The position numbers and the translations under genes are program-made. Positions 40,122-64,000 of a stretch of 64,000 bases of DNA are shown piece after piece; position 1 is the stretch's first letter, and each line of letters begins with the position of its first letter. Location of the stretch: NCBI GenBank assembly GCA_964485195.1, contig CAZAIK010000001.1, positions 124,001 to 188,000 on the forward strand, written 5' to 3'. The notes below the pieces were generated by a model. It made no database searches. It was not told the origin of the DNA and was given only the letters and a program-made list of their open reading frames with translations. The DNA is from an uncultured Methanosarcinales archaeon. GTDB taxonomy: Archaea; Nanobdellota; Nanobdellia; Woesearchaeales; CAIVOO01.

Positions 40122-43100
40122 TTACTCCAGCAGATAGTTTATTATCTCAAGGTCAGAGGGATGGTAAGGGTTGATTTTGTCTGGGGTGAACACAGGCTGC
40201 AGAGGCAGTTTCACAAGCTTCTTCGCTATTACCCCCTCTAGTTCGCAGTTGCTCTCTATAGCTGACTGGAGAATTGCAGTGTTCTCCCCATAAGGAACTG
40301 TGTCTTCTTTTCCGTCTTGGCAAGAGATTATTCCGTCAAAGTTTATCACAGCTTCCTCATCCAGGGGCTGCCCTGCAATGTCCAGTTGAGGAATTTTCCA
40401 TTCAATAGTTAACTCTTCAGGAGTTTCCCCAGGCACTCTTGTTATTTCAACATATCCCGGGGGAACGTCATCGTAGCTTTGTCCTCTGGGTGTCTCAAGG
40501 ATGTTAACGCTTTCCAAGTCCCTGTTGTTCACAGCTGTTATCCCATAATAAATTTCCGCCCCTTCCGCAAGGCTGTCAATATAATAATATCTATTGGTGT
40601 CAGACTCATAAACCAGCATTCCTTCCCTGGGTCTTATATTTTGCGTGGCCACAGCTCCTTCAGTTTCCTCCACCTGGGCTTCCAGCTCAAAAACGCACTG
40701 CTTGAATCCTGTTGGAGAGCATTCCGGTACCAGGGTTATGGACTTCACTGCCATCTCATTTTGCGCATTTATGAATTCAGGATTGGCAGTTTCCTTAACA
40801 TCCTCTGATTTCTGGTTTGGAAAGCTGGTGTCCTGCTTGTACACATTGTATCCCACAACATTCCTTGCAGGGCTCCTGAACCAGCTTATTACCGTCAAGT
40901 CCCTGGCTCTAATGAGACTTTGGGATTCCACCCCCCTGACATCAGGAGGGGGGACATTGGGAGGCAGGAACGCAAATCTTATGGTGAGAGGCACTTCCTC
41001 AAATCTTTCCAGAGTCGGGTTTCTTGTTTCTATCTTGAGATTGTCATCCTTGCTCACAGCGCAGACCTTTATCATCTGGCTCTCGGCCTGGTGCTCAGGA
41101 AGGCCTGCCATAGGCTCCTGTGAAAAGGAGATTATGCCTGAGTTTTTGTTCATAACAATCCTGGACAAAGGACCTATCCTCTCATCCTGATAAACTAATT
41201 TTATTCCTCCTTCATTTATTATCTGCGAAGGAAATTCAACAACGTTCTCCATGGTAAAAAGAGAAAAGACATTCTCATCCCCTGTCAAGGACATATCATA
41301 TCTCTCTTCCGACACCTGCGTGAATGTTATGCTGTTTCCGGATTCCAAGGCATAATCGGGGTCAAAATCCTCCATCACGCAATAACCATTCTCGCCTGCC
41401 TGCAGGCAGGTATCATAAAACTCTGCAAAGTCGCTGAAAAACGCCTCGTCCGCATTCTCGCAATATGTTTCCCAGCCTATCTTTCCCCCAGAAGAGGGCG
41501 TTTCCTCCTCAAAATAATACTCCCTGTTCTGCTTGAAGAAATAGTGAAAGTCCTCATCTTCAGCTGTTTGCAGGGCAAAGCAGTCAATAGTCTGGGTCTC
41601 GCCGCACTGCTCCTCATCCTCAATCATATTTTTCATTCTGTCCTGCACTTTCCTGTAAGGCTCAAGCGAATAGTCCAAGACTGTGGAGAAAGAACCTGCT
41701 ATCAGGTAAGTTGCGAAAAGGATTTCGTCCTTTGCAGATGTTCCTGCATAATTTATCAAGGTTCCCGGAAGGCAGGGCTGAAGCTGCCTGCTTGCGTATG
41801 AAGTTTGCGTTCTGGGAACAACCGCAACAAAATTTGCAACCTTTCTCCCATCCCCGTCTGTCAGCTGCCTCTCACCTGCCCAGTTGTAATAATGCATTGT
41901 TGAGCCTCCCCCGTCAAGATTAACAACCTTCTCACAATTTTCATTGGCTTTAAGATAATCTTTTAGTTCATCTACATTTGCGCTGGTGGCAGTCACTAAT
42001 TTCACCTTATAATCAGGAGTTACGCAAACCTGGGTTCTGGGTCTTATGTCCGAAGCACTTTTAGCGCCGGCAACTGCGGAAGTAATTGAAGGGTTATCAA
42101 CTGCCATCTGCTTGAAATCCTTTTCAGAAAGTATCCTGGGAAGGTTATTTTCCACAAAAAAATACTCCTCAGCGAAATCGTGCGGGCCTTTTACCAGTTC
42201 GCCGTCTTCCACAAACCAGCCTAAAATCTTGCCCTGTTTGACCCACTCCTCACCCCCTTCTTCCCTGGCCCCGAAAAAGGCGCCGTTTACTCCGGCAACA
42301 AAATCAAGTCCGGGATATCTTTCAACTGCTGTCTTGAGATTGATAAGGCAGTAGCTACAGGTTCCTCCACCTATGTCCTCAATTATTGTCTTGGCAGACA
42401 ATGTTTTAATATCAAAATACTGGGGATCTGCCTCTATTATTCTTGTTCTTCCAAAGATGTTCAGCTCTTTGAGATTCAGTGCCGACTGGGGTATGCTTTC
42501 AGGGGCTCCGCTTTTTTCAAAGTCAAATTCAGGCTCTTTTTCCAGCTGGTCAAACCTTATGGCAAGGTGGCCTTCCTCAAACTCTTTGTTTTCGCCTGCC
42601 CTTGAAGCTGCCTCAGGCCACTGGCAGAGCTTTTTTGAAAAGGCATTTTTCCAGGAATTGGTTCCGTATTCAAAAACAGCTCCGTTGTTGTGAATATTAA
42701 CCCAGCCTGCCTGGCAAGCCAGTTTTATCCTCTTCTCGTAAGGAGCGCACAGGCTGGTGTCTATTGTTATGGAATCCCCTGATGCTGAGACAGAAACTAT
42801 TTTCAGCTGGCAGTTGTTTGCCCTGAAAACGCTGTTTAAGGAGTATAACGCGTCAGAGACAGGTTTTTTGAATTCGCATTTCCCCGCGCAGACAGTTTCC
42901 CCGTTTATTTCCTTGAGGGTCACCATAGGCTCGGCTTCAACATTCACATTGAGAGGCCCGCCTCCGAAAAAAGAGCCCGGCTGGCAGTTCTGGAACTGTA
43001 TTCCCGGTCCCGGTGCGGTTCTTTGATAATCTGCCACATATTTTTTTTTCAGTGCTTCAATTCTTGCCACAGACTCATCTATTCTTGACTCAGTAATAAT

Positions 43101-45335
43101 CCCCTTATTCACAGCTTCTTCTATGCCATCAATAAGTGTTTTAATGTTCGCCTCTGTTTGGGTATCTGATTTTTTATAATTAACAATCAAAAGTATGTCA
43201 ATCCCCGCTTCAACAGCGTCAACTGCGAGTTTCTTGTGGTCTTCCCTGTATTTAGGGCTGTCCCAGATGGAAACAGCCCCCAAATCATCGCTTATTACCA
43301 CACCATTGAAATTCTGCCTTGCCATCTGCACTATTGACGGGGAAACAACTGCTTGGTTTTCAGAATCTGTATTTTGATAGACAATATTAGACATCATTAT
43401 CGCGTCTGTATGCGGCTTGAGCGAATTAAAAACCTGCAGCTCTGCCTGGTCTAATGACAGCACTGCAACGCGCTCCTCATCGCTGTTCCTGGATTCGTCA
43501 CCATAACCCGGGAAATGCTTTATTGTGGCTGCAACATTATTCTGGTGAAGCCCCTTGATATATGCCCTTGACTTTTGCTTCACCACAGAAGGGTCTCCGC
43601 TGAAGGAACGGTCTATCTTTACCATCAAGGCATCTGGATCAGAAGCGACATCAACAACAGGAGCAAGGTCCATATTAATGCCCAAATCTTTCATTACTTT
43701 GCTCGCCTCAGACATCTTTTGGATTATCTGCTGTGCATTCCCCATATCTCTCGGGGCACCGGGATTGTAAATATGGGATATCCTGTTTATCCTGCCTCCT
43801 TCTATATCGCTTGAAACAAGCAAGGGGATGCTTGCCTTTGACTGGTAGCTTGATATCCTGCTGGTAATTTCCTGCACAGATGCTCTTCCCCCCGCACCCT
43901 GTGAATGGGGCACGGTCCCTGTCCCTTCATTGTCCTTCATTAATATTACTCCTCCCACCTGGTATTTCTCCACAAACTCCCCATTAGGGCCTGGGGTTGA
44001 CATTATCATCTGTGCAATCTTTTTCCTCAAGGGCAGGGAAGCCAGACTGACCTGCTGGAAAAGGTTTATTCCATTGCATCCAAAAACATCCCCAGTCTCA
44101 ACAACATTGCCGCAGACAGTAAGGGAATCTGCACTGACCTCAACTGTTGCAAAGATATGTTTGTTCTTGAGGTTTCTTTCATACTCAGTGTCCCCTCTTG
44201 GGTATCTTATGTTATTTGAGGAAACTGTGCCAGCAACTACCTGAAGTATCTTCCCCGAAGAAAAAGTTTTTTTGACATAGCAGTGCTGGTGCCCTGAAAA
44301 AACAGCCTTTATATGGGGATTTGCCTCAATTACTCCTTTCAGCCCATTAAGCCTGTCGTGTTTGTGCAATCCGCAGTCAATGCTGATGGCAGGCAGATGG
44401 GAAAGGATAATCGTGGGCTTGTCCTGATTCCCTGACAAGTCCTTTTCCAGCCAGTTTGAAAGGCTTCTGGACAGGGAAACGCCAGTGTAATCCAAAGCAA
44501 CAAAGTGATATCCTTCATAGTCAAAAGAGTAATATTCCGGCCAGTTGGAATCGTCAACAAAGTTGATATCAGCGGGTTTTTTGTCATTCCAGAACTGCTC
44601 ATATTCTCCCGGAGCATCGTTAAGGTCGTGGTTTCCCTTTACAGGGAGAATTGGAACTTTGGAAAGTTTTTCATAATCTTCAAACTTAAACTGGTCCTCC
44701 AGGGTGAAATCGCCAGCGTGGACTATGAAATCAGGATTTGTGTTAAGTATAGTGTCTGGGTTCTTAATGGGTGTTGTGTGGGTGTCGCTTATGACTGCAA
44801 AACTGAAATCCTGGGCTGAGGCAAAGCTGGCTGACAAGACTGCAATGAAGATGAAAACAGCGATTTTGGCAGGAATTTTCCTTTTTTTCCTGTGTCTTAT
44901 GAATAAAATTACCAAAATGAGTATTAATGCAACCATTATAAGAGCAAGTACAAGTATCCTGCTGCTTTCTTCCTCCTCTCCAATTAAATCTGAAAATGCC
45001 TCTTCAAGTAAGTTCCCCCCTTCCGCTTCAAATTCTTCCGGCCCTGTATAATACTGGTCTGCCCTGAATTCAGCCTCGTCCTTGCCATACTGTTCAGACA
45101 GCCTTTCAACAGCTTCCTCCTTGGAGAGGGTTATGCAGGTTCCGTTGCAGCAGTTCTCCCCTGCATAGTCCGAGGTGTTCCACATTGAAATTCCCACGCA
45201 CTCCTGGAATTCGTTGCACACATCCTTCCCACCCATATTCACGCAGGAATAATCCCAGTCTGCCTGCGCAGAAACATTTAAGGTTAAAAGCAAGATAAAA
45301 GCTGCAACTATTCCTGTTAATGAAATTTTCTTCAT
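40122..45335 (-). CDS. 1737-aa exported mosaic: metallophosphoesterase, GH3 (NagZ-like), eroded M15-like, phosphodiester glycosidase (NAGPA/DUF2233), C-terminal beta-rich domains
   Basis: DTH/HAGD/GNHD/GHQH; DIEGG/LAPVVD/KHFPGYG/ISDDL; VNGAFF/RPRT/NLDGGGST. Confidence 0.85.
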   Translation of the reverse strand: MKKISLTGIVAAFILLLTLNVSAQADWDYSCVNMGGKDVCNEFQECVGISMWNTSDYAGENCCNGTCITLSKEEAVERLSEQYGKDEAEFRADQYYTGPEEFEAEGGNLLEEAFSDLIGEEEESSRILVLALIMVALILILVILFIRHRKKRKIPAKIAVFIFIAVLSASFASAQDFSFAVISDTHTTPIKNPDTILNTNPDFIVHAGDFTLEDQFKFEDYEKLSKVPILPVKGNHDLNDAPGEYEQFWNDKKPADINFVDDSNWPEYYSFDYEGYHFVALDYTGVSLSRSLSNWLEKDLSGNQDKPTIILSHLPAISIDCGLHKHDRLNGLKGVIEANPHIKAVFSGHQHCYVKKTFSSGKILQVVAGTVSSNNIRYPRGDTEYERNLKNKHIFATVEVSADSLTVCGNVVETGDVFGCNGINLFQQVSLASLPLRKKIAQMIMSTPGPNGEFVEKYQVGGVILMKDNEGTGTVPHSQGAGGRASVQEITSRISSYQSKASIPLLVSSDIEGGRINRISHIYNPGAPRDMGNAQQIIQKMSEASKVMKDLGINMDLAPVVDVASDPDALMVKIDRSFSGDPSVVKQKSRAYIKGLHQNNVAATIKHFPGYGDESRNSDEERVAVLSLDQAELQVFNSLKPHTDAIMMSNIVYQNTDSENQAVVSPSIVQMARQNFNGVVISDDLGAVSIWDSPKYREDHKKLAVDAVEAGIDILLIVNYKKSDTQTEANIKTLIDGIEEAVNKGIITESRIDESVARIEALKKKYVADYQRTAPGPGIQFQNCQPGSFFGGGPLNVNVEAEPMVTLKEINGETVCAGKCEFKKPVSDALYSLNSVFRANNCQLKIVSVSASGDSITIDTSLCAPYEKRIKLACQAGWVNIHNNGAVFEYGTNSWKNAFSKKLCQWPEAASRAGENKEFEEGHLAIRFDQLEKEPEFDFEKSGAPESIPQSALNLKELNIFGRTRIIEADPQYFDIKTLSAKTIIEDIGGGTCSYCLINLKTAVERYPGLDFVAGVNGAFFGAREEGGEEWVKQGKILGWFVEDGELVKGPHDFAEEYFFVENNLPRILSEKDFKQMAVDNPSITSAVAGAKSASDIRPRTQVCVTPDYKVKLVTATSANVDELKDYLKANENCEKVVNLDGGGSTMHYYNWAGERQLTDGDGRKVANFVAVVPRTQTSYASRQLQPCLPGTLINYAGTSAKDEILFATYLIAGSFSTVLDYSLEPYRKVQDRMKNMIEDEEQCGETQTIDCFALQTAEDEDFHYFFKQNREYYFEEETPSSGGKIGWETYCENADEAFFSDFAEFYDTCLQAGENGYCVMEDFDPDYALESGNSITFTQVSEERYDMSLTGDENVFSLFTMENVVEFPSQIINEGGIKLVYQDERIGPLSRIVMNKNSGIISFSQEPMAGLPEHQAESQMIKVCAVSKDDNLKIETRNPTLERFEEVPLTIRFAFLPPNVPPPDVRGVESQSLIRARDLTVISWFRSPARNVVGYNVYKQDTSFPNQKSEDVKETANPEFINAQNEMAVKSITLVPECSPTGFKQCVFELEAQVEETEGAVATQNIRPREGMLVYESDTNRYYYIDSLAEGAEIYYGITAVNNRDLESVNILETPRGQSYDDVPPGYVEITRVPGETPEELTIEWKIPQLDIAGQPLDEEAVINFDGIISCQDGKEDTVPYGENTAILQSAIESNCELEGVIAKKLVKLPLQPVFTPDKINPYHPSDLEIINYLLE

Positions 45336-46534
45336 GATGTTATTCCTCTCAGCTGGTTTTCTGCCTCTGCCTGGAAATTGAGTATGGCTGGAACATAGCC
45401 CCTGATTTCCTTTGCCTTGGATCCGCTCATACCAACGCTTCTTGTTAACCCCGGGGTTATGTGGGCTGATACAGTTTCCCAGGAAGGGTCCTGTTCCCCT
45501 GTCCTCTTGATAGCTCTTCTGATAGTGTCAGGCCCTCCGTTGTAAGCTGCCAGCCCGAATTTTACCTTGTCAGTATAGCCATCAAATCGTGAAGTGTAAT
45601 CATAAAGGAGCTGGCAACCTGCGCGGATTGATTTCTCAGGGTCAAACCTGCCGTCATTGGCAGCATTGCAGGCTGCAGTTCCGTAAGTGCAGCTGCTTCC
45701 TGAACAGCTGCAGGGAGTGATATCCCCAAGGATATGAGAATATTCCCTTGCTGTTCCAAGGCAAAACTGGTTCAGGCCTGCACAGCCCGTCCAGGATATG
45801 GCAAATTTCTTTCCCCTGGACTCCTGGGTTATTAGCCCCACCATAAGGGAATCCTGCACTCCCAGGGGCGCGCAGTAATTTGAGACAAGATGACCGTATG
45901 TGTTTATGATAAAACTTATTGCTTCCTTGTTGGACTTGCCTACTGGGCCTGCAGGATAAGAGGCAGGAGGCAACGTGTAAGTGGTATAGCCTGTTTCTAT
46001 ATCATACTTTTTCATATCAAAGCTCAGGGGAACTATTGCATCTCCTGACACTATTGTTTTTTCTCTGCCTTCTTCCTCAAAGATGTTTATTTTGTAATTG
46101 TTGAACTGGGTGACGGGGCTTTCGGGAATCCTGAAAAAGTTGTCAATCTCTTCATTCATCTTGATTTCAAAAAGGTCTTTCACTGGTTTTCTGTTTTCAG
46201 AGACAGGAATGCACTCTTCCTCATCAAAGTCCCATATCATAAAATTGTAATGATTTCCGCAGGGGGAGTCAAAGGGCAGGCCGCCTTCATAAGCTGTCAG
46301 GAAATAGGCGTCCGGAGCTGCATATCCTGCTGCCATATCTATGTAGAACAAGGAGGATTCCGCTTCCTGATATGTCTGCGTTATCAGTTTGGACTTCATC
46401 CCCACATCCCCTTTCCTGGCGCTTTCATCCTGGTTCTTGTTGATGAAATAGAGCATAGCCCCTAAGGAAATTATCAGGAACACGCTTACCAAAGTGATGA
46501 AATATTTTCCTTTCTTGTTTTTGAACAGTTTCAT
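45332..46534 (-). CDS. Pilin-like protein with C-terminal lytic transglycosylase (SLT/GH23) domain
   Basis: KKG-hydrophobic N-terminus; ITQESRG, AGLNQF, LAAYNGG, EIRGYV. Confidence 0.88.
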   Translation of the reverse strand: MKLFKNKKGKYFITLVSVFLIISLGAMLYFINKNQDESARKGDVGMKSKLITQTYQEAESSLFYIDMAAGYAAPDAYFLTAYEGGLPFDSPCGNHYNFMIWDFDEEECIPVSENRKPVKDLFEIKMNEEIDNFFRIPESPVTQFNNYKINIFEEEGREKTIVSGDAIVPLSFDMKKYDIETGYTTYTLPPASYPAGPVGKSNKEAISFIINTYGHLVSNYCAPLGVQDSLMVGLITQESRGKKFAISWTGCAGLNQFCLGTAREYSHILGDITPCSCSGSSCTYGTAACNAANDGRFDPEKSIRAGCQLLYDYTSRFDGYTDKVKFGLAAYNGGPDTIRRAIKRTGEQDPSWETVSAHITPGLTRSVGMSGSKAKEIRGYVPAILNFQAEAENQLRGITS

Positions 46535-47118
46535 TCTAAATACACTTCTGCCTTTACAATATTTTGTTGGCCTGTGGGATATTGCACCTCTGCCATTAAT
46601 GTCTGTCCTGTTGTGCCGCAAATGCCTGTGCCGGGTCCCAGGGGGGACAGGATGGTTTTCTTTTTAATGAACCCCACTACATAAGGGGTTTTGGAACAAT
46701 GTAGGCTTTGCAAAGAAGGGTAAAAGACTGACAAGCAGGCACCTTCGCTGTCAAGCTTTTGTATATATGGCCTTATCTCTTCCATAACTGAATCAAAAAA
46801 TTCCGGCTTTTCAGCAACTGGATACCGGCCTGCCTCCACCTTGCTTATGCACTCGTCTTCATCTGCAACTTTCCCCAGGTATTCAGCGAACATTAATGTC
46901 CTGCCGTCTTCAAGGGTTACCGGGGCTCTAAGAACATTTAACAATTCAAGGCTGTAATCCGCCTTTAACGACTGCACATCCACCTCTGCCTTTGATTTGG
47001 TGTTTGTTGATACTATCAGTATTATGACTATTATGAAGAAAACAAAATATGCGAGCAGGGCGAAAACATCTGTAATGACTGATGTTCCTATTCCCTTTTT
47101 TGATTTTGAAATTTTCAT
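46531..47118 (-). CDS. Class III signal peptide (pilin-like) protein
   Basis: KSKKG|IGTSVITDVFALL. Confidence 0.75.
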   Translation of the reverse strand: MKISKSKKGIGTSVITDVFALLAYFVFFIIVIILIVSTNTKSKAEVDVQSLKADYSLELLNVLRAPVTLEDGRTLMFAEYLGKVADEDECISKVEAGRYPVAEKPEFFDSVMEEIRPYIQKLDSEGACLSVFYPSLQSLHCSKTPYVVGFIKKKTILSPLGPGTGICGTTGQTLMAEVQYPTGQQNIVKAEVYLE

Positions 47119-47636
47119 GTCCTGGGCACCAAGATTTCTGTAAGCAGCATTCCCTGCTCCCTGTTCCCTTCTTCATCCACATACAGCACGTAAGTCCTGT
47201 TGTCTGCCTTGAGCACAGTTCCCCTTCCCAGGAATGTTTCGTGGGAGAGGGGCAGCCAGTCCAGATATCTTTCTCTGTTGTAATATGCCTGCTTAACTAT
47301 GTTATCTTCAAAGTCAAGGAGTGTTATGTTCGCCGCAATCATTTCCTTGCCCCCGCTGAAATTGGCTGCTGACTCCAGTATTTCAGGGTCAAAATTTTGA
47401 AGGTCAACAATTCCAGGGTAAGTCCTGCCTGTGTAAGGGTCGCTGTATGACAGGGCATTGGGATTGTATAAAAGATAGTCCTTGAAAACACTTGCTTCTA
47501 TGTCTGCTGTGTCGCTTTGCTGTGATTCATAAATCCTTGCTACGAAATAAATCGAGACCAGCATCATTACTACAAAGAGTATCCTGGCAATCCAGTAAAT
47601 CATGTCATAAGCTCCCATTGCTTTTTTTGATTTCAT
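47115..47636 (-). CDS. Class III signal peptide (pilin-like) protein
   Basis: KSKKA|MGAYDMIYWIARILF. Confidence 0.78.
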   Translation of the reverse strand: MKSKKAMGAYDMIYWIARILFVVMMLVSIYFVARIYESQQSDTADIEASVFKDYLLYNPNALSYSDPYTGRTYPGIVDLQNFDPEILESAANFSGGKEMIAANITLLDFEDNIVKQAYYNRERYLDWLPLSHETFLGRGTVLKADNRTYVLYVDEEGNREQGMLLTEILVPRT

Positions 47637-48544
47637 TCAAAATACTCCCTTATTGATCCTGCAATGCTGCTGATGATTTCTCTTTGAGGTGCTGTGGGGC
47701 TGATTTCCACCCTTAATGAAACAGGGTTCATCATATTCCTGTTGTCCTGCTGTGAAGTTGCCAGCACAGTCGTTTTAATGTTCTGCTTCATCAGGCTGTT
47801 TCTTATAAGGCAGGAGAGCTTTCTTGCCTTTTTTTCCGGCAGGCTAAGAATGTTAACATTTGAATCTATGACTGGCTGTCCTATCTCCAGTATTATTGCG
47901 TCAGGACTTGCCTCTGCAACGGTTTGAAAATTGGCTGTGCTGTCATAGTAGTTGGCACTTATTCCCGCTGCTGTAAGGCTGGGGGCAAGGACGGAATTCC
48001 TCAGCATTTCCTGCACAGATTCGTCACCGGTCCTGTCCAGGAGAATGACTTTTTTTGCGTCCCCGGAAGTGTCAACCTTTTCGCAGTTTGTGGATGCAAA
48101 GGAAATGTCATTCTGGTCAAATGCAAAGTTAGGATGGCTTTTTTTCATTGAGACAACAGTCTTCTCTGTTATTCCCGGGCCTAATGCTGCGGGAGGGAAT
48201 AAGAATTTAAGCTGGGAATCCTGCGGAAACAGATAGTATGTCAAGGAAGGGGTAATTGTGCTTTCTTCCATAAGGTAGACATCAACCCTGTTTGTAGTGA
48301 ACCTGTACTGGAAGCCGAACGCGTCTGCGTAAGAGAAGAAGACAGAGCCAGGGGCTGCCTCTGCAGACTCTATGGTCAGGGACAAGTCCCTGGCAGACTT
48401 CTGCTTCATTATTCTCAAGTCAGAGCCCACCGCCACTCCGTAAGCAAGGGCTGCTATGAAAACTATTAGCGCAAGAATAACCTCAATAATCTGACGGCCC
48501 AGTATCTCCCATTGCCCCTTTTTTTGTCTCAGCGGCCTTAACAT
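47633..48544 (-). CDS. Pilin-like protein with eroded Amidase_3-like C-terminal domain
   Basis: QKKG|QWEIL; KKVILLD...PDAIILEI...RKLSCLIRNSL...SLRVEI...IAGSIREYF. Confidence 0.7.
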   Translation of the reverse strand: MLRPLRQKKGQWEILGRQIIEVILALIVFIAALAYGVAVGSDLRIMKQKSARDLSLTIESAEAAPGSVFFSYADAFGFQYRFTTNRVDVYLMEESTITPSLTYYLFPQDSQLKFLFPPAALGPGITEKTVVSMKKSHPNFAFDQNDISFASTNCEKVDTSGDAKKVILLDRTGDESVQEMLRNSVLAPSLTAAGISANYYDSTANFQTVAEASPDAIILEIGQPVIDSNVNILSLPEKKARKLSCLIRNSLMKQNIKTTVLATSQQDNRNMMNPVSLRVEISPTAPQREIISSIAGSIREYFE

Positions 48545-48581: not shown

Positions 48582-49424
48582 CTAATTGTCGGCTTCGCTA
48601 CAGGTTTGCTTGTCATCTCCCAACGCTTTCCAAACACAAGTTATACCTTTTGCAGACAACCCGCAAGGGTCGGATTTACACTGGGAAGCTGCCTTGTCTA
48701 TGTGGCTGTGTTCGTAAGGTATTCCAACACTATCACTATATTCCCAATCACCCATAGGCTCTTTGATTCTCCTCTGCCTGTGATATGCATATCTTTCACA
48801 GCTCATATCCCCCACAAGCACGTTAGAGCAGGGCTTGCACTGGAATGATTCTCTTTTTGCTCCACCAATTGTTGCAGAAGGTTCATCATTTGTAAGCATT
48901 ACAAAGCACTCGTCTCCTGCCATGCAGTCCTGGAAATTGTCAAAGTTGCATTTCCCTGCATATTCCCCTGAAACCTGTATGCCTTCATCAGTTCCTTCAA
49001 CCTCCAAAATGACAACGTCATTAGCTCCTGTTGGTGAAAATTCCCCCTGTAAATCTACTGAACTCCTGAAGCATCTTTCTTTGTAAATTTTTGAAAGGCA
49101 GCCAAAAGGCTGTATTAAGGAGGAAGGACTTCCCTGCTTGCAAAGGCAGATGCAGTTTTCCACGCAGTTGCTATCAAACTTGTTCGTTGTTATCTTGAAC
49201 CCGCTCCTTATGTCCACAGGAACATAAACAGGAGCGCCCCACTCATCCACGTTTCCCATTGCATTTTCCAGCCTTTCAAAGCCCTGGATGGTTGAATAAT
49301 CAGGCCTGGGGATTATAATCCTGTAGCCTGCTGAAAGCAAAGGCATGACAACATAGATTATAACAATGGAGGCTATCACAATCCCTATGATGGTGGACCA
49401 TACAATGCCTTTCTTGCCCTGCAT
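48582..49424 (-). CDS. Pilin-like protein with Cys-rich domains
   Basis: GKKG|IVWSTIIGIVI; CICLC and further Cys. Confidence 0.75.
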   Translation of the reverse strand: MQGKKGIVWSTIIGIVIASIVIIYVVMPLLSAGYRIIIPRPDYSTIQGFERLENAMGNVDEWGAPVYVPVDIRSGFKITTNKFDSNCVENCICLCKQGSPSSLIQPFGCLSKIYKERCFRSSVDLQGEFSPTGANDVVILEVEGTDEGIQVSGEYAGKCNFDNFQDCMAGDECFVMLTNDEPSATIGGAKRESFQCKPCSNVLVGDMSCERYAYHRQRRIKEPMGDWEYSDSVGIPYEHSHIDKAASQCKSDPCGLSAKGITCVWKALGDDKQTCSEADN

Positions 49425-49466
49425 TTTATCCAATATTATTCTTATTTTTAAAAAGATTTGTTAAAA

Positions 49467-49733
49467 TCAAGAATCAGAGACAGGAATGCAGCATTGTTGC
49501 CCTTCTTCACAGCTGAACTTTCCAAGGCTTATCTCATTGCCTGAGCAGGGGGAAACTCCTGGCTGAATCTCAGTTTTGCACTCCCCTCCTCTTGCCTCGC
49601 ACCTTGCAATTCCAGAGGCCTGCTGTGCAGAGCTGGTGGAATACTTCCAGAAAATGAATGCAATTATGGCAAGGGCTATGACCCCTATTACCATCGTGAC
49701 AATCACCCAGTTGACATCAGCTTTTTTCTTCAT
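49467..49733 (-). CDS. Small pilin-like protein with six-Cys C-terminus
   Basis: KKKA|DVNWVIV; CEARGGEC...CC. Confidence 0.82.
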   Translation of the reverse strand: MKKKADVNWVIVTMVIGVIALAIIAFIFWKYSTSSAQQASGIARCEARGGECKTEIQPGVSPCSGNEISLGKFSCEEGQQCCIPVSDS

Positions 49734-49999
49734 CCTTCCTCCCTTTCTATGGGAACACAGCATCCCACTGTTTCAGTCCTTTCATCATTGGGAGCGTAAG
49801 TGAAATAACTGTCAGGGCCGCATTCTGTGCTTGAAGCTGCCTCACCTCCTCCCCTTTCAGAGCAGGTAGGCCCTTCCAGGCTCCTTCCGAAAATGCTGGC
49901 TCTCTGCGTGAAGATGTAAACAAGAACAACAAGCACTATAATCACAAGTATGGCTATAATCATCGTGTTCAATGACAATGAAACACCTTTTTTCCTCAT
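49730..49999 (-). CDS. Small pilin-like protein
   Basis: RKKG|VSLSLNTMII; CSERGG...CC. Confidence 0.85.
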   Translation of the reverse strand: MRKKGVSLSLNTMIIAILVIIVLVVLVYIFTQRASIFGRSLEGPTCSERGGGEAASSTECGPDSYFTYAPNDERTETVGCCVPIEREEG

Positions 50000-50241: not shown

Positions 50242-50243
50242 TC

Positions 50244-54064: not shown

Positions 54065-54597
54065 AATCCAAGCTCCACGGTCATTGTTCCAGGGTAAAGG
54101 GGCAGGTAATAAGAGTCTTTCTGTATGTATCTCAAGCCTGTTCCGCCCCCTGTAAGGCATTCCTCTATTGAATCATTAATCTCTATTATTGGCTCGTCGG
54201 GGTTTGTGTAAGCCAGGAACTGATATTTCTTGTTCCAGCTTTTTAATGTTCCATTAAGCATTGCATCTACTGCTATGTCCAGGTATGTGCAGATTATTGT
54301 GTTTGGCAGTATTGTAATGCCCATAAAATCACCCCCGCAGGTTCTGCAGGTGCTTGGGCTGTCCCAGCAGTTGCCGCAGTCTATCAGCAAGGTGCTTATC
54401 TTGTCATTCTGGCAGGTGGATGTTGTGGAGAGCATTGACGCCAGGATGTTTGTTGCCAGCTGCTGCTCTGAAAACTCCCTTTTGGAGGTTGTTTCCCCAG
54501 AGCTCCTTAACGCGTTGCTCACTATGAAAAGTATCCCTATGGATATCAAGATTACAACTATTGCTATTCCAAGCATCTCTGTCTGTGCTTTTTTCAT
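54055..54597 (-). CDS. Class III signal peptide (pilin-like) protein
   Basis: MKKA|QTEMLGIAIVVILI. Confidence 0.85.
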   Translation of the reverse strand: MKKAQTEMLGIAIVVILISIGILFIVSNALRSSGETTSKREFSEQQLATNILASMLSTTSTCQNDKISTLLIDCGNCWDSPSTCRTCGGDFMGITILPNTIICTYLDIAVDAMLNGTLKSWNKKYQFLAYTNPDEPIIEINDSIEECLTGGGTGLRYIQKDSYYLPLYPGTMTVELGLCS

Positions 54598-55085
54598 CTT
54601 GTGTAAACTCTCACGTCAATGTATCCAAAGGAAAACTGGTTGAATATGGGATCCTGTATTGAAACAGGCACCTGCGTTGAAACATAGCCTGTTATGTTCC
54701 CTCCGGGAAAATCATAAATATTGTAGGTTTTTTGCTCAGGGTATATTGAATATACTGTTATGTTGCTGAACCCGAATATGTCAAAATAATAATCTGTCCT
54801 GTTCTCTGCAGGATTGTTCAACAGCAAATCCTGCATTGCCCTGATTTTGTAGATGTCAAAGCAGTTGAACTGTATCACCTCAAGGGTTGAGCACTGGAGC
54901 TCTGAGAGAAAAGTAGCAGTCTGCGAAATTGTTATTGCCCTTGACAATAAATCTGTTTCCTGCTGTTCTCCGAGCTGCACCTGGCTGTATCTTGACCAGA
55001 AGATTATCCCCACTATTACCAGAATGAAGAATATCATAAGCACTGCAACACTCTCTCCAATCTTAATCTGAGATTTTTTTCTCAT
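54594..55085 (-). CDS. Class III signal peptide (pilin-like) protein
   Basis: RKKS|QIKIGESVAVLMIFF. Confidence 0.85.
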   Translation of the reverse strand: MRKKSQIKIGESVAVLMIFFILVIVGIIFWSRYSQVQLGEQQETDLLSRAITISQTATFLSELQCSTLEVIQFNCFDIYKIRAMQDLLLNNPAENRTDYYFDIFGFSNITVYSIYPEQKTYNIYDFPGGNITGYVSTQVPVSIQDPIFNQFSFGYIDVRVYTR

Positions 55086-55086
55086 T

Positions 55087-56124
55087 TTAGTATATTGGGG
55101 CGCAGGATGCCCTTAATGCGTTGTTGTTCCTGCTCATTACTTCACTCTCTGTTAATTGTATTGTGGTTACATCCCTTTCAAGGGCTGCCTCAGCTATTGC
55201 TTCTACCTTCGATGGCGCTCTGGTAATTGGGTCCTTGCATTCATCCAGATAAGAATCCACATATTCCTGGTTAAGGGCAGTTTCTTTCTCTGCATAAACC
55301 TCGCTCACGTAATGCAGCTTTTCAAACGCCTTTGTCACAGAGCAGTTGAACTCATCCTTGTCTGCCGAGAACACTGCACCTATAATCATCGGCTGCTTGT
55401 AGATCTTTATGGGAGCTCCCTTGAGCACCAGCTTTTTCTCCCCTCCAAAATCCTCTTTTTCATAATACTGGACAAACTGCTCATCTTCATTTATGTAAAC
55501 CCCGCTGACAGCGTTGTCAGGCATTTTTTTCAAAAATTCCGGAAGCTCTTTTGTATTGGTTTTAGCGTGAATTTCGCTCAGGAATATCAGCCTTACCCTG
55601 TAATTGTTCTGGTCTGTGAAGCCGGCATCGTTAATGACTGCCACTTCCTTGGTGATGTTGTCCGGCAATGATTCATAAAAATCAACAGCCACTTGAACAT
55701 CCGGCCCTGAGACTATGACATATCTCACATTGGATGTGGTCATGTAAAGGAAATTGGCAATTTTATAAGGAACGTTCCAGTTCTGGCTGTAAACAACAAG
55801 CTGTCTTCCCTGCAAGGTATCTGGGCCGAAGACAACCTTGTCCGGGAACTGCCTGCTCACCCCCAAAGTGGAAATTCGGTTGCATTCAATGTTAAAGGGG
55901 AGATTGGGCATGTCAAAAACCTGGCCTGTCTGCGGGATTGTAAGGGCCCCGCTCATTATGAGGTCAACTTTTGAGAGCAGTTCAAAAGCCAGCTGCTGGT
56001 CCGCGTTCCTCCTCTGCACATTAGATATGTTAATGAAAAAAACAAGGATAAGAGCACCAACTATCAGGACAAATACCCAGTTAAACTGTATCTCTATGGC
56101 CCCTTTTTTCATTGAGAACTTCAT
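55087..56124 (-). CDS. Class III signal peptide (pilin-like) protein
   Basis: MKKG|AIEIQFNWVFVLIVGALIL. Confidence 0.85.
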   Translation of the reverse strand: MKFSMKKGAIEIQFNWVFVLIVGALILVFFINISNVQRRNADQQLAFELLSKVDLIMSGALTIPQTGQVFDMPNLPFNIECNRISTLGVSRQFPDKVVFGPDTLQGRQLVVYSQNWNVPYKIANFLYMTTSNVRYVIVSGPDVQVAVDFYESLPDNITKEVAVINDAGFTDQNNYRVRLIFLSEIHAKTNTKELPEFLKKMPDNAVSGVYINEDEQFVQYYEKEDFGGEKKLVLKGAPIKIYKQPMIIGAVFSADKDEFNCSVTKAFEKLHYVSEVYAEKETALNQEYVDSYLDECKDPITRAPSKVEAIAEAALERDVTTIQLTESEVMSRNNNALRASCAPIY

Positions 56125-56603
56125 TGTATTGTGACTTTTGCTTCATCCCCCAGGCCTTCAATCCTCAGGGTTATTGTTCCCCTGGTAACGTCTGCGCAGG
56201 CAAACCCCTCGTCCAGCTGGAGGTTTTCTATGTAAAACGGGGCTCCCCCCGGCAGGACAAAAACATTTGCCTGAACCCTGTCCTGGACGCTGTCGTATAT
56301 CAGGGGATATTCATTTTCAGGTATGGATGAAGCATCTCCTGTTATTATTAAATCAGGGTCTACCAAACAGAGCTCATCATAGCCTGAAGGCACCAGGAAC
56401 TCTTCTATCCTCACAGTCCCGTAATCCGAGCTGGTGTAGTCAATCATGTCTGAAAGCCCTGTCTGGAACTTGACATAAGACAGTTCCTGCTGTTTTTCGC
56501 CTATGTTCCTGATAGCGCCATAGCCGTAATAAAGCACTAAGATGATTATCAGTGTTGCAATTAAATAAATGAATATCTGTCCTATCTGGGCTTTATTTCT
56601 CAT
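56121..56603 (-). CDS. Class III signal peptide (pilin-like) protein
   Basis: RNKA|QIGQIFIYLIATLII. Confidence 0.85.
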   Translation of the reverse strand: MRNKAQIGQIFIYLIATLIIILVLYYGYGAIRNIGEKQQELSYVKFQTGLSDMIDYTSSDYGTVRIEEFLVPSGYDELCLVDPDLIITGDASSIPENEYPLIYDSVQDRVQANVFVLPGGAPFYIENLQLDEGFACADVTRGTITLRIEGLGDEAKVTIQ

Positions 56604-59628: not shown

Positions 59629-62600
59629 TTATCCTGCACCGCTTATGCACTTCTCATAATCCGAAGGTGAGCCTTTGAAAACATCGCACAAGTCCGTGGC
59701 TCCTGATGCAGCCACGAAATCCATTATGCATTTTTTCTTGAAGCCAGGCACATACGCATCGTCACAGAGCTCTGCCAGCCTAACATCTTTTGTAATGCCT
59801 CCTGCAGCTGCCAATAGAGAAACATAGCATTCATAATCTATAAGTTGTGTGTCTTCTTCTGTGCACATACTTGAAATGTGGGAGTTGTAGCAATCCAAAA
59901 ATGTCTGTTGATCTGCCGCGCAGATGTCCACCACTTCCTCAATGGTTTGCGGGGGATCAGGACCCTCTCTTATTATCTCGCTGCACTCGGTGGGGGAGAT
60001 GCAGATAACTATTGAAGGCTTTTCTATATCTGAATATATGAGTTTTGATGTTTCCCCTGTGTTGCCTGCCCTGTCCCTTGCAATTATCTTTATCTTGTTT
60101 GTTATTACCTCGCCTTCCCTCCCCACGACTGTGGTGTTAATAGCGGGCATTACAAAGGCGCCTGTCTCATTGTTGATGCAGGCCACTTCCAAAGAGGACT
60201 TGCACGGGAACACCCTTCCTATCAGTTCCCTGCTGGCGTCTCCTGTGACCCTGTAAAATGATAACTCTGCAACATCTGTAGGCACTATTCCGGAGATGTT
60301 CACTATGTCTTTCTGGACAATGTAAATTAAAGACTCATTTCCGCTAACAGAGGGCAAGGAGTACCTATAAATAGGCCTTGCGTTTATTTCTATATTTACG
60401 GGGTTGAGGGCTGGCGCTGTCTCGTCAATTGTTATCCTGGCTGTCTGGCTGTCATCGTAATTCATCCCGTAATCTGACAGGTTCAGCCTTATTGCGTATG
60501 ATTGCCCGTCTTCAAGGTCCATTCCATCCAGAAAGGCTTTCTGCATGTTGCGGGGAGGGACTCTTCCCCTGATGTCCTGCTGGGTTATTTTCAGTGTTTC
60601 ACCCTCAAGGTTGAATGTCTGTCCGTCCTGGTCTGTTATGCTGATGTCTGCAATCACGTTGTGCTTTTCGTTCAGCACCATAGCTGAAAAGTTAATGCCT
60701 GCGTCGCGCCTCATATACTCATTTGCTATGGTGAAGTTCTGCACTATGGGGGCTTCTGTGTCCCGCACGAAGTAGAATATGTCAGGAGAGCCCTTTGAGA
60801 CAAATGTTTCGTCTGCAAAGACTTTAATGGGCATTATTTTGAGGTGATAGTCGCCGTCCTCAAATGATGGAATCTGCATGGTGCACCTGAAATTGTCAAA
60901 GCTTCCCGTCCTGGCGCACTCAACAGTCCCGTTTCCCACAGGAACGTCCAGCTCTGCCCTGCCTATCTCCACTATGGAAGTGGTGAATTCTTCTTCCTCC
61001 ACATAGCTTGCCCCCACTATGGGTATTCCGTTGACGAAATGATACTTGGTGTCGTTGGCTATGAAAACATCGTTCAGTATGGTGAAAGTAGGAATCCTCG
61101 GAAGCTTTGAGTCAACTGTCAAGTTCCAAGCGTGATTGACAAAGTTGTTTGCCTTGTCGCCCGCCTTCATCTTTATCAGGTAATTGCCGTCCTGGTCTGC
61201 CTCAAAATTGTAGGAGATGCTATAAGAAGCTGTAACTCCTGCATTTTCATCAAATTCAAAGGATTTTGTGGTTATGTTTATCTTGTCATTTTTTACGCGC
61301 GCCCCGTTGATGGTGAGGTTTATGTTGTCCTTTCTCAGGCCAGAGCCCTTTTCCAGCACAGTCATTGTTATCCTGTCTATCTTCTTCAGCCTGCCCTGAC
61401 TGACTTCAGGCTCTAATCCTGTGATGTTAGGAGGGACTGCGTCCACAATTACGTCCAGCTTGTTGGTGGGAACTCCCAGGTTGCCTAGTTCATCATACTG
61501 TATTAGCTGGGCTGTGTGCATTTCATACCTTGCGTTTGGGTTTATGGGTATGGACATGTTAAACCTGTCCGGCTTGATGTGCATATTGCTGAATATCATT
61601 TGCTCTCCCTGCCCCACCTCTTCTTCAAGCGGTATGTCAAGGGTTATTACTGTTCCCTGGCCTTCCACAAACTGCACATCATTTACATTGTATGCCTCCT
61701 TGTAATGGCCGTATTCCTTCCTGTGATGGCCTCCGAATCTGACATAAGTTTCTCCGAGCGTGTTGATCCTTGTAACCTCATCTCCTGGTATTAATACCTG
61801 GCTTTCCCCTTTCCTTGCCCTGGCTCCTGCTTCCAGGTTGGTTATTTCTGCGTATTGCTCTAGCGAAAGCTGCTGGTATTCAGCTACAAGAGAATCATCT
61901 GCAAACAGTTGCAGCTTAACCCCTGGTTCAGATGTGTGGCCTGTGAGGTAAGCCCTGCCTTCCCTTGCGCCCACATAATACCTGTCCTCTTTCTCGTCGT
62001 AATGAAGGGGATATCCTAAAATGTCGTAGTTTTCCCCTAAACTGTTCTGCTCGTTGGTGATGGGCGGGTCAAATGCTGGGGGCTTCAAAGGACCTACCTG
62101 GTCTATTATCACAAACACGTTGTCTTCTCCCATATTGCCTGCTGCGTCTCTTGCCCTCACAGACAATAATCCTTGATTGTTAAGAAAGAGCAGTGCTGAA
62201 ACATTAACGTCGGCCCTGAAGCTTCCGTCACTCTGTATTTGCGTCTTTTGCGCCTGCTCCACCCCATTGATTGCGAAAGACACCTCTCCGCTAAGTGCTG
62301 AGGTTGAGGAATTGTCAATTATTACCAAGTTGGAGAAGGAATCATTTCTGGTTAAGTTCATATACCCCTCCTGTGCAATTCTTTCAAAAGTGCCGTAGGT
62401 TAATCCGTTTATTATAATCTCTGCACTTGCTCCCTGCGCATTGATGGTCACATTTACAGGGGGCCCTGCAGTGAAGGATTCTGTGCCCAAGACCTGTCCT
62501 GCCTGACCATACCTTATCAGGTCATCATCAAAGTCAATCTGCACAAAGTCGTAGAAGTTTTCAGAGCTGTAGTCAAAGATTATTTCTGCAAAGTCCTGAG

Positions 62601-64000
62601 CATTCACCTCTGCATCAAGCAGGAAGTCCCTGAAATAAACAGGGAGGAATCCTCCGCGGTCAGCCCAGTAAGCAGGGTTCTGCACAATACCTTCAACTGA
62701 GATTGTTTCGCCGGGAACTCTGCAAGCTGGCACCCCTCCTGGATTTGTGCACTTGCCTGACAAGCCCGTGATGGTAATTCTTGGGGAGGACACATCCACC
62801 TTTATCTGCTCGCATTCTGTATCTCCTGCATTACCTCCCCTGTCCATTCCGTTAAAGCACAATGTTTGCGTCTGGTTAATGGAAAGCTGGACCTCTGTTC
62901 CATTAACCTCTCCCTCCGAGGATTCTGCAATGACGGGCTGGGGAGTGCATTGTGACTGCAATGCCGTGCAGTAATTTAACACTTCACAGCCGAACTCGCC
63001 TATTGGATAATTAGGCACTGGGTCTATGGCGGGCGTGGGAGGGTCAACGCACTTCAGCAGTATGCTGGCCTGGTTTTTCCACCTGGAAAGGTTATACTCC
63101 TTCTCTACAATTCTTTCCCCTGCCTCAAATATCTTTATTTCAGGCGCAAGATTGTCAACAGTGAACCTTATCCCTGCAACCTCGCTGCTTGTGAGATTCC
63201 CTGTCTCCACAAGCCTGCACCTCACAAGATACATCTTTGCAATCGCGTCTTCCACTATTGAAACTGGCGAGGAGTGGAGTTTGCCGTTGGTCTGCTCAAA
63301 GGTAACCATTTCGTCAAAGCTTATGCCCTGCAGTGTGGTGAATGCAAACTTGCCGTTTGCGTCCAGAGGCACGTCCATATATCTGCAGGCGGCGTCTGCC
63401 CTTGTCCTTATTGAAATTTCAGAAACATCCTCTTTCTTGACAGTGGTGTTTGGCTGACCGTCATAAATCATGTCCTCTGTGTCCACCACTATCAGCTGTT
63501 CCTCTGAAATTTTGTTTCCAACCCAGTCTGTGCAGTTGTACTGGTATGTGTAAACTCCTGAAAGCACGTCAAAGGAGTCTGAGAATGATTTCCCTATCCT
63601 TCCCTGGACTCCTGCCTCTCCTGCGACAATGCTTCCTGAATCATCATAAATGTTCGCAGTGCAGTTCAGGTATTCTGTTGAGTTTATTGTTGTTCTTAGC
63701 AAGGCATTGGCCTTTTCATAATAGTAGGAGAATGTTACAGGAGGGGGTACAAAGTCTATGTATATGTTGAATGATTTCACGACTTCAAGGTTGTCTGCAT
63801 CATCCCTTGAATAGAAGAACACTGTATAGTTCTTATCACTGGCAGGCAAGCCTGCCCAGGAGATAAACCCGTTTTGGGCGGACAGGTTGGGCCTTGTATA
63901 TGCCATAGGACGGCCTTCAATCACCTCTGCTATCTGGAAGAAGGTTTCTGCATTGGGACTTATGAAGCTCCTGTCCTGGTCATCCCATACTGTGACAGGA
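59629..64000 (-). CDS. Giant Ig-like repeat surface protein (5' end outside window)
   Basis: Repeated DxAGN and DxxxP motifs, Cys-rich C-terminus; frame open to the window edge. Confidence 0.82.
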   Translation of the reverse strand, partial: PVTVWDDQDRSFISPNAETFFQIAEVIEGRPMAYTRPNLSAQNGFISWAGLPASDKNYTVFFYSRDDADNLEVVKSFNIYIDFVPPPVTFSYYYEKANALLRTTINSTEYLNCTANIYDDSGSIVAGEAGVQGRIGKSFSDSFDVLSGVYTYQYNCTDWVGNKISEEQLIVVDTEDMIYDGQPNTTVKKEDVSEISIRTRADAACRYMDVPLDANGKFAFTTLQGISFDEMVTFEQTNGKLHSSPVSIVEDAIAKMYLVRCRLVETGNLTSSEVAGIRFTVDNLAPEIKIFEAGERIVEKEYNLSRWKNQASILLKCVDPPTPAIDPVPNYPIGEFGCEVLNYCTALQSQCTPQPVIAESSEGEVNGTEVQLSINQTQTLCFNGMDRGGNAGDTECEQIKVDVSSPRITITGLSGKCTNPGGVPACRVPGETISVEGIVQNPAYWADRGGFLPVYFRDFLLDAEVNAQDFAEIIFDYSSENFYDFVQIDFDDDLIRYGQAGQVLGTESFTAGPPVNVTINAQGASAEIIINGLTYGTFERIAQEGYMNLTRNDSFSNLVIIDNSSTSALSGEVSFAINGVEQAQKTQIQSDGSFRADVNVSALLFLNNQGLLSVRARDAAGNMGEDNVFVIIDQVGPLKPPAFDPPITNEQNSLGENYDILGYPLHYDEKEDRYYVGAREGRAYLTGHTSEPGVKLQLFADDSLVAEYQQLSLEQYAEITNLEAGARARKGESQVLIPGDEVTRINTLGETYVRFGGHHRKEYGHYKEAYNVNDVQFVEGQGTVITLDIPLEEEVGQGEQMIFSNMHIKPDRFNMSIPINPNARYEMHTAQLIQYDELGNLGVPTNKLDVIVDAVPPNITGLEPEVSQGRLKKIDRITMTVLEKGSGLRKDNINLTINGARVKNDKINITTKSFEFDENAGVTASYSISYNFEADQDGNYLIKMKAGDKANNFVNHAWNLTVDSKLPRIPTFTILNDVFIANDTKYHFVNGIPIVGASYVEEEEFTTSIVEIGRAELDVPVGNGTVECARTGSFDNFRCTMQIPSFEDGDYHLKIMPIKVFADETFVSKGSPDIFYFVRDTEAPIVQNFTIANEYMRRDAGINFSAMVLNEKHNVIADISITDQDGQTFNLEGETLKITQQDIRGRVPPRNMQKAFLDGMDLEDGQSYAIRLNLSDYGMNYDDSQTARITIDETAPALNPVNIEINARPIYRYSLPSVSGNESLIYIVQKDIVNISGIVPTDVAELSFYRVTGDASRELIGRVFPCKSSLEVACINNETGAFVMPAINTTVVGREGEVITNKIKIIARDRAGNTGETSKLIYSDIEKPSIVICISPTECSEIIREGPDPPQTIEEVVDICAADQQTFLDCYNSHISSMCTEEDTQLIDYECYVSLLAAAGGITKDVRLAELCDDAYVPGFKKKCIMDFVAASGATDLCDVFKGSPSDYEKCISGAG

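What the first reader, a model, noticed from the sequence alone, without database searches (positions are those of the whole stretch)
40122..64000. Archaeal type IV pilin supercluster ending in a peptidoglycan-attack module: candidate pilus-borne system against bacteria
Seen: about 24 kb of co-oriented, mostly overlapping genes. About 18 carry class III (KK[GAS]-hydrophobic) signal peptides, two are giant Ig-like proteins, and the distal genes encode SLT, Amidase_3-like, GH3, M15-like and phosphodiester glycosidase domains. Established: SLT, NagZ-type GH3, Amidase_3 and M15 act on bacterial murein, which archaea do not make, and many DPANN archaea are host-dependent. Inference: the cell displays wall-binding and wall-cutting domains on a pilus to attach to, breach or scavenge bacteria, implying a bacterial host or prey. 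No assembly ATPase or prepilin peptidase lies in this window.
Basis: partly seen in the sequence, partly recalled or inferred. Interest (0 to 1): 0.92.

Follow-up and report, generated by a model that had tools for sequence, protein, structure and literature searches.

The report
Archaeal pilin with swappable wall-cutting enzymes
A tiny archaeon that makes no bacterial-type cell wall has a conserved cluster of pilus-like genes whose last member has a slot that different relatives fill with different enzymes for cutting bacterial cell walls, which points to a surface tool for attacking or feeding on bacteria.

Summary
The cluster is real, archaeal (Woesearchaeota-type, inferred) and about 40 kb long, running past the window. 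Its end gene is a pilin-like scaffold with an internal slot. The scaffold occurs in 244 of 301 genomes of the order, nearly always once. In samples not chosen for SLT, 25 of 38 loci and 56 of 88 long homologues carry a murein hydrolase (SLT, M23, M15, Amidase_2, NlpC/P60, GH73, M74) and the 88 carry no other enzyme. Other long cluster proteins do so in 1 of 41. Here the scaffold is split between a pilin-SLT (catalytic Glu intact) and the 1737-aa GH3/NAGPA protein; a model re-joins the halves (0.86, best control 0.00). Prepilin peptidases, ATPases and platform genes lie elsewhere in the genome. No filament, activity or host is shown. Murein hydrolases in these archaea are published; the pilin slot was not found in nine paper searches. 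This scan noted similar loci in other genomes.

The parts
40122..45335 (-). 1737-aa multi-enzyme protein: Sec-like leader, a TM helix and a second signal-like segment (res about 128-175), then Metallophos, GH3, dead M15, NAGPA, and the C-half of the split pilin scaffold
44277..44804 (-). calcineurin-like metallophosphoesterase domain (res 178-353)
   Evidence: Pfam PF00149 E 7.5e-14
43056..44030 (-). NagZ-like GH3 domain (res 436-760); nucleophile Asp kept, acid/base His replaced
42603..42887 (-). degenerate M15/VanY-like remnant, Zn-ligand motifs lost
   Evidence: E 1e-27 in a 7-sequence set to the intact VanY domain of same-genus G003
41820..42299 (-). NAGPA phosphodiester glycosidase domain (res 1013-1172)
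   Evidence: Pfam PF09992 E 5.6e-13
40941..41744 (-). C-half of the pilin-like scaffold (res 1198-1465)
   Evidence: (E 6e-27)
45332..46534 (-). 400-aa pilin-SLT: class III-like leader, scaffold N-half (res 1 to about 185), lytic transglycosylase cargo with invariant Glu238
46531..47118 (-). 195-aa class III-leader protein; positional counterpart in relatives but sequence poorly conserved
47115..47636 (-). 173-aa class III-leader protein, the best conserved neighbour (51 of 140 loci)
47633..48544 (-). 303-aa class III-leader protein with degenerate Amidase_3-like C-domain
48582..49433 (-). 283-aa Cys-rich class III-leader protein (variable region)
49467..50856 (-). five small paralogous pilin-like genes (81-102 aa): 30-residue helix plus acidic six-cysteine head; candidate major pilins
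50933..52119 (-). class III-leader gene broken by the assembly gap at 51408-51507
52262..53936 (-). paralogous pair, 300 and 256 aa (class III motif only on the 256-aa gene)
53933..56603 (-). conserved block of pilin-like genes, 44/180/163/345/160 aa
56593..59613 (-). 1006-aa Ig-like surface protein with Sec-like leader and C-terminal TM anchor
59629..64000 (-). 3' part of a 2453-aa Ig/CarboxypepD_reg giant (starts at window 66990). Upstream, outside the window: 130, 925, 666, 164 and 2342-aa genes to 80090, then a divergent Peptidase_A24 gene at 80203
39086..40096 (-). RPA gene, conserved downstream landmark (not a part of the apparatus)
   Evidence: 50 of 71 scaffold loci, 1 of 89 other loci

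Best explanation
The locus encodes the subunits of a lineage-specific type IV filament (pilus or short pseudopilus) whose terminal minor pilin is an enzyme carrier. The carrier is a scaffold of about 260 aa with a slot between two beta-strands. Across the order the slot is empty or holds a murein hydrolase, and the cargo has been exchanged many times. In this genome the scaffold gene is split: the pilin half carries an SLT, and the other half sits at the end of the 1737-aa protein and probably re-docks on it, bringing GH3, NAGPA and phosphoesterase domains along. Class III peptidases process the subunits and an ATPase/platform pair encoded elsewhere assembles them. On contact with a bacterial cell the displayed enzymes cut the wall locally for attachment and feeding. 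SHOWN by sequence: leaders, synteny, slot, cargo identity, split, machinery in trans. MODELLED: re-docking of the halves. INFERRED: cleavage, filament, activity, living bacterial target.
For: Scaffold in 244 of 301 genomes, single match in all but 5 of them. Cargo in samples not chosen for SLT: 25 of 38 evaluable loci, 22 over Pfam cut-off; 56 of 88 long homologues, 54 over cut-off, with no non-murein enzyme family. Of the other 32, 17 have no insert and 10 of 15 inserts match my profiles of NlpC/P60, M15, GH73 or M23. Control: 1 of 41 other long cluster proteins. Tree of 108 scaffolds needs 43 label changes against a minimum of 6, and strongly supported sister groups differ in cargo (quick tree, 15 of 105 branches strongly supported). 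SLT Glu invariant in 19 of 19, fold matches Slt70/MltF. Class III motif in 110 of 129 new homologues. The Atlas model of an empty scaffold resembles a TadE minor pilin (TM 0.61 by target, 0.37 by query) and, weakly, GspI (lead only). Split halves: ipSAE 0.86, best of 3 controls 0.00, runs agree in 97% of contacts, partner pLDDT at least 83; the mark was reached by 116 of 157 solved and 2 of 215 mismatched pairs. No Mur ligase in this 99.5% complete genome. Second fixed position with an Amidase_3 domain.
Against: No filament, cleavage, expression, activity or host was observed. No cluster protein hits a pilin family over cut-off. The ATPases and platform genes are not in the locus and there are two pairs to choose from. 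Many scaffolds are empty: 9 of 38 loci, at least 42 of 129 homologues, and all 18 listed matches in other orders of the class have open frames of 192-295 aa (not fetched). The apparatus therefore does not need this cargo. Several cargo domains are degenerate (Amidase_3 and M15 here; 9 of 20 M23 domains lack one or both crude motifs). 88 of 119 sampled SLT genes are outside this locus. The complex pass concerns halves of one domain and used my own alignments with fused relatives, so it shows fit, not binding in the cell. Outer membranes of diderm bacteria would shield murein (own knowledge).
Confidence: 0.6

Rival explanations
1. Scavenging only: the same surface display digests murein from dead cells and debris for sugars, amino acids and phosphate, as a bindosome-like feeding device, with no living bacterial host.
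For: The partner proteins carry exo-acting or tailoring domains: GH3, NAGPA, metallophosphoesterase, polysaccharide deacetylase in G003, GDSL esterase. Class III-leader cargo proteins are known as scavenging devices (PMC13705601).
Against: Mostly one endo-acting enzyme per scaffold, swapped among unrelated chemistries, fits a local cut matched to a partner better than full digestion (inference). Uptake and catabolism of muropeptides were not examined.
Confidence: 0.2
2. Adhesion only: the hydrolase folds act as wall-binding modules on a pilus and catalysis is incidental.
For: Degenerate Amidase_3 in most orthologues (8 of 37 still hit Pfam), dead M15, non-canonical GH3.
Against: SLT Glu invariant; 11 of 20 M23 domains keep both motifs; dedicated wall-binding domains such as LysM, SH3b or PG_binding did not appear among the hits.
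Confidence: 0.1
3. No filament: the proteins stay as a membrane-anchored surface complex that merely uses class III processing; the wall-cutting function could be the same.
For: No ATPase or platform gene in the locus; no pilin family hit; small-pilin heads match no pilin structure.
Against: Five paralogous small helix-plus-head proteins with conserved N-termini; peptidase gene at the head of the cluster; scattered T4F genes are the rule in Nanobdellati (PMC13705601).
Confidence: 0.25
4. The target is not bacterial murein but an own glycan layer, pseudomurein of a methanogen host, or chitin.
For: NlpC/P60, GH3, deacetylase and a GH19-like insert seen by eye have wider substrate ranges (own knowledge).
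Against: SLT, MurNAc-L-Ala amidases, D-Ala-directed M15, M23, M74 and GH73 have only murein as common substrate; pseudomurein lacks MurNAc and D-amino acids (own knowledge). No Mur ligase in the genome.
Confidence: 0.05

Closest known systems
Large murein-like lytic-transglycosylase proteins of Woesearchaeota/Pacearchaeota (fam00969, module 98; Castelle et al. 2021, PMC8204110)
   Same: Same lineage, SLT/GH23 domain on a surface protein, same hypothesis of bacterial hosts (passages).
   Different: fam00969 has median length 1947 aa, 79% SignalP-positive and GH23 only (supplement row); the scaffold here is 170-1860 aa with a class III leader and many cargo families. Sequence identity of the two families was not testable. 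The main text has no 'pilin' or 'pili', and the supplement no PF01551/PF01520. Other module-98 families of unknown function may be the cluster genes (16 of 51 family rows seen).
Sulfolobales bindosome and class III-leader substrate-binding proteins (PMC13705601)
   Same: Functional cargo domains behind a class III leader, assembled by T4F machinery encoded elsewhere (passages).
   Different: Cargo here is enzymatic, aimed at a polymer of another domain of life, inserted inside the pilin fold, and not linked to an ABC transporter in the locus. The paper's main text has no 'peptidoglycan', 'hydrolase' or 'amidase'; its supplements were not opened.
Archaeal modular peptidoglycan hydrolases that kill bacteria (Strock et al. 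2025, PMC12352652) and GH23 in 'vampiristic' Woesearchaeota (Vigneron et al. 2022, PMC9723730)
   Same: Archaea encoding murein hydrolases, prominent in Nanoarchaeota; predation proposed (passages).
   Different: Neither text contains 'pili'; no conserved locus, pilin carrier or swappable slot is described in the passages seen.
Modular minor pilins and Tad-like contact-killing systems of bacteria
   Same: Effector modules grafted onto pilin subunits; contact-dependent action.
   Different: No sequence relation tested; only weak model-to-model likeness to TadE/GspI.

Membership tests
Archaeal type IV filament (T4F) system | Subunits with class III signal motif and hydrophobic N-terminal helix | tested here: met
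   16 of 18 vs 31 of 101; 110 of 129; own regex, not FlaFind
Archaeal type IV filament (T4F) system | Class III (A24) peptidase encoded | tested here: met
   two genes, C2:128887 and C1:204233 at the head of the cluster
Archaeal type IV filament (T4F) system | Assembly ATPase and platform protein | tested here: met
   in trans only: T2SSE hits on C2 and C3, each next to platform-like genes judged by eye from translation and position; which pair serves the cluster is unknown
Archaeal type IV filament (T4F) system | Pilin-family or pilin-fold match of the subunits | tested here: inconclusive
   no hit over cut-off; TadE TM 0.61/0.37 for an empty scaffold; none for the small pilin
Archaeal type IV filament (T4F) system | Cleavage and assembly into a filament | not testable with these tools
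   needs experiment
Named archaeal T4F subsystems (1, 2, 4A-4I) | Ordered locus with subsystem-specific arCOG components | not tested
   no arCOG or MacSyFinder models available; DUF7286/7287/7288 were only the nearest named clusters at 0.76-0.82
Family 1 lytic transglycosylase (SLT/GH23) | Catalytic Glu (ES motif), GLxQ and AYNxG motifs, SLT fold | tested here: met
   motif names recalled
NagZ (GH3 beta-N-acetylglucosaminidase) | Nucleophile Asp | tested here: met
   aligned
NagZ (GH3 beta-N-acetylglucosaminidase) | Asp-x-His acid/base dyad after KHFPG | tested here: not met
   His replaced; 104.7 bits vs cut-off 207 for PRK05337
Amidase_3 | Zn ligands (His, Glu, His) | tested here: not met
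   histidines absent in the window gene, present in L123, L162, L144, L082, L170
Peptidase M15 (VanY) | SxHxxGxAxD and ExxH motifs | tested here: not met
   lost in the window, present in G003 and G006
Bindosome | Substrate-binding cargo linked to ABC transporters | tested here: not met
   no binding-protein or ABC family among cluster genes or cargo
fam00969 (Castelle 2021) | About 1950-aa signal-peptide protein with GH23 | tested here: inconclusive
   length and leader differ; the two giants here have no SLT hit; family sequences not available

The most novel reading that the evidence does not exclude
Most Woesearchaeales carry one conserved pilus-type machine for attacking bacteria, with a polymorphic murein-hydrolase cassette at its tip that is swapped to match the wall chemistry of the host. 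These abundant DPANN archaea would then be cross-domain parasites or predators of bacteria, and the cargo would predict the host type.
Probability: 0.4. Interest if true: 0.95.

Novelty: new variant of a known kind. Interest (0 to 1): 0.83.

Why it matters
The hosts of Woesearchaeota are unknown, and the idea that some live on bacteria has rested on scattered SLT genes. A single-copy, order-wide pilin scaffold whose slot holds at least seven unrelated murein-hydrolase families, and almost nothing else, turns that idea into a defined apparatus. It names proteins to express, assay and localise, gives a genomic marker that separates armed from empty lineages, and may guide co-cultivation. It is also a pool of divergent lysin-like enzymes (1669 clusters at 50% identity hold the scaffold).

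Tried and rejected
Chimeric or bacterial contig: rejected. Active Amidase_3 and M15 in this genome: rejected. Cargo spread over all pilins: rejected, 1 of 41 long proteins, with one more M15_4 on another cluster protein among 37. SLT in the giants: none. Word-indexed homologue search with the scaffold returned only 4 proteins. Sigma-70 promoter and terminator scan is not suited to an archaeon and was not used. No RNA holder listed. Fold search of the small pilin gave no hit at E<=0.001, only weak beta-defensin-like matches. The wide VIA fold search was not obtained. The careful tree did not finish; the quick tree was used. Scaffold loci from other orders and 8 of 48 drawn loci of this order were not fetched, so cargo outside the order rests on open-frame lengths. 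Paper searches with no description of the system; most subscription journals are not in the library, and Rinke 2013 and Castelle 2015 were not read. PMC12992704 was irrelevant (passages). Look-ups of earlier notes by place and by sequence were empty.
Full report
Setting. The window is G000:C1:124001-188000 of a 1.13-Mb genome, 99.5% complete and 0.6% contaminated. Flanking genes are archaeal. A scaffold homologue from a genome of the same order is named Ca. Woesearchaeota by NCBI and the nearest Atlas clusters are Woesearchaeota/Nanobdellota, so the order is inferred to be Woesearchaeales. The two runs that hold the DNA are microbial-mat metagenomes of one study, one of them possibly the source. 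Depth is flat across the distal 15 kb and no joint is listed.

Anatomy. 21 minus-strand genes lie in 40122-64000, tightly coupled. The cluster continues to window position 80090 with 130, 925, 666, 164 and 2342-aa genes, followed by a divergent Peptidase_A24 gene cut by the contig end. Class III-like leaders are enriched well above the genome background, 16 of 18 against 31 of 101. A second A24 peptidase and two secretion ATPases, each beside platform-like genes, lie on C2 and C3. Scattered T4F genes are reported as typical for Nanobdellati (PMC13705601, passages). The cluster gene families tested have no close copy elsewhere in the genome, apart from two weak hits of the small-pilin profile and six distant paralogues of the 925-aa gene.

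Domains in this genome. The 400-aa gene has a class III leader, a 185-aa N-domain and an SLT domain with the catalytic Glu invariant in 19 of 19 aligned relatives; its model matches Slt70 and MltF. The 1737-aa gene holds Metallophos, GH3 and NAGPA domains. The GH3 is closest to beta-N-acetylglucosaminidases but lacks the acid/base His. The M15-like stretch is a deleted remnant of a domain that is intact in G003 and G006. The 303-aa gene is an Amidase_3 homologue: 8 of 37 relatives hit the family (37 of 44 found were scanned; 7 short forms were left out), five visibly keep the Zn ligands, this copy does not.

Conservation. SLT occurs in 174 of 301 genomes of the order. I fetched 120 of the 150 listed SLT places; 119 gave an ORF, and 26 of 113 with an intact 5' end had a class III motif, mostly inside runs of 3-15 co-oriented class III genes (274 on the same strand, 32 on the opposite). 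The gene order is conserved: giant, 160/345/163/180 block, small pilins, 300/256 pair, variable genes, 303, 173, about 190, terminal gene, then RPA. 88 of the 119 SLT genes lie outside this locus.

The slot. The terminal gene's N-domain profile hits 244 of 301 genomes in the order, with one match in all but 5, and 187 of 251 in a phylum sample, 35 of them in other orders. These tallies include genomes flagged unpublished; no other claim rests on them. Minimal forms of about 260 aa show N- and C-halves joined directly, with the insertion point between two strands. To avoid selecting on SLT I drew 48 of 103 scaffold places not yet fetched and obtained 40. Two were cut by contig ends. 25 of 38 carry a murein hydrolase in the scaffold gene or a following gene (22 over cut-off): M23 in 13, also SLT, M15/VanY, Amidase_2, NlpC/P60 and weak GH73. 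Of the 13 without, 9 have no room for cargo and 4 have unannotated inserts; one of these matches my NlpC/P60 and SLT profiles, two have SLT-like partner genes, one stayed unassigned. The profile finds 1669 clusters among 1.84 billion representatives. Of the best 150, 21 duplicates of my loci were dropped; 88 of the other 129 are at least 300 aa. 56 of 88 hit murein-hydrolase families (SLT 23, M15 types 16 plus one fused with M23, M23 8, Amidase_2 3, NlpC/P60 or CHAP 3, GH73 2 plus one fused with SLT, M74 1); the only other hits were fn3 and SLT-related lysozyme models. 17 have no insert, 10 of the remaining 15 match profiles built from confirmed cargo at E<1e-5, one weakly, three are Cys-rich repeats and one is unassigned. 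The profile was seeded from SLT carriers, which may inflate SLT. As control, 1 of 41 other long cluster proteins (41 of 52 found were scanned) has such a domain. On a quick tree of 108 scaffolds the seven labels need 43 changes (minimum 6, shuffled mean 58.7), so cargo is clustered but exchanged often; support is weak on most branches. All 18 listed matches in other orders have open frames of 192-295 aa, the size of an empty scaffold; this was not verified by fetching.

The split. Residues 1165-1522 of the 1737-aa protein match the C-half profile built from one-piece relatives (E 6e-27). The same split occurs in G003 and G006, with different extra domains (deacetylase, VanY, NAGPA; Metallophos, NAGPA twice), so the partner's cargo turns over within a genus. 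A co-fold of the two window halves scored 0.86 against 0.00 for the best of three controls, with 97% contact agreement and pLDDT of at least 83; this mark was reached by 116 of 157 solved and 2 of 215 mismatched pairs. Halves of a split domain tend to pass and my alignments held fused relatives, so this supports but does not show docking.

Reading. The common substrate of SLT, MurNAc-L-Ala amidases, M15, M23, M74, NlpC/P60 and GH73 is bacterial murein (established enzymology, own knowledge), and this genome has no Mur ligase. Repeated replacement of one murein hydrolase by an unrelated one in the same slot is hard to explain unless murein is the target. Whether it is met on living cells (0.6) or as debris (0.2), whether cutting or binding matters (0.1), and whether a filament exists at all (0.25 against) is open. 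Empty scaffolds and degenerate domains show that the apparatus also works without this cargo.

Prior knowledge. Large SLT proteins in Woese-/Pacearchaeota and the hypothesis of bacterial hosts are published (PMC8204110: passages and supplement rows), as are GH23 in Woesearchaeota (PMC9723730: passages) and archaeal hydrolases that kill bacteria (PMC12352652: passages). Class III cargo proteins are known as bindosomes (PMC13705601: passages and sections 13, 15, 16; supplements not opened and they may list such loci). None of the passages links hydrolases to pilins, and nine searches found no such description. Three earlier AI notes of this scan report similar loci in other genomes; they are not independent evidence, and two of them led me to PMC8204110.

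Verdict. A real, order-wide pilin-like locus with a swappable murein-hydrolase slot: a new variant of cargo-bearing archaeal type IV filament systems, interest 0.83.

Noticed in passing
window 49467-50856: The heads of the five small pilin-like proteins have a six-cysteine pattern whose model resembles beta-defensins (best Foldseek E 0.5, TM up to 0.68 by target; not significant). They are acidic, not cationic.
   Followed up: partly
G000 C2:89660-90409 and C5:95621-96445: Two more murein-hydrolase genes outside the cluster: a stand-alone SLT (249 aa) and an M23 peptidase (274 aa) with a twin-arginine-like leader.
   Followed up: partly
G000 C9:1431-14054, C15:1-6246, C2:132515-141206: Paralogues of the 925-aa cluster gene with class III-like leaders, each beside 1200-1450-aa or 744-aa surface proteins; possibly further pilin-giant modules.
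   Followed up: no
G000 C2:148199-156848: A second, classical-looking pilin group (five genes) next to an ATPase and two platform-like genes.
   Followed up: partly
L067, L081, L094, L110, L122, L134, L141, L147: SLT domains in 730-1130-aa proteins without a signal peptide and with charged N-termini, outside the pilin locus; possibly another family.
   Followed up: no
L179:4390-5727, L184:236-1729, L156:12018-13388: Slot or partner inserts not hit by Pfam: two related hydrolase-like domains of unknown family and one GH19-like domain judged by eye.
   Followed up: partly
L136 (G005:C2): Rearranged cluster: the SLT sits on a different class III-leader protein upstream of the Amidase_3-like gene.
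   Followed up: no
window 1121-2863: NifU/IscU-like gene apparently interrupted by an intein with a homing-endonuclease-like domain, judged from the translation.
   Followed up: no
window 30054-32652: Aminotransferase and decarboxylase pair resembling the DapL/LysA lysine route, judged from the translation; of interest because diaminopimelate is a murein component.
   Followed up: no
window 36132-36169: A 38-bp stretch shared with another contig in both runs; a short repeat.
   Followed up: no
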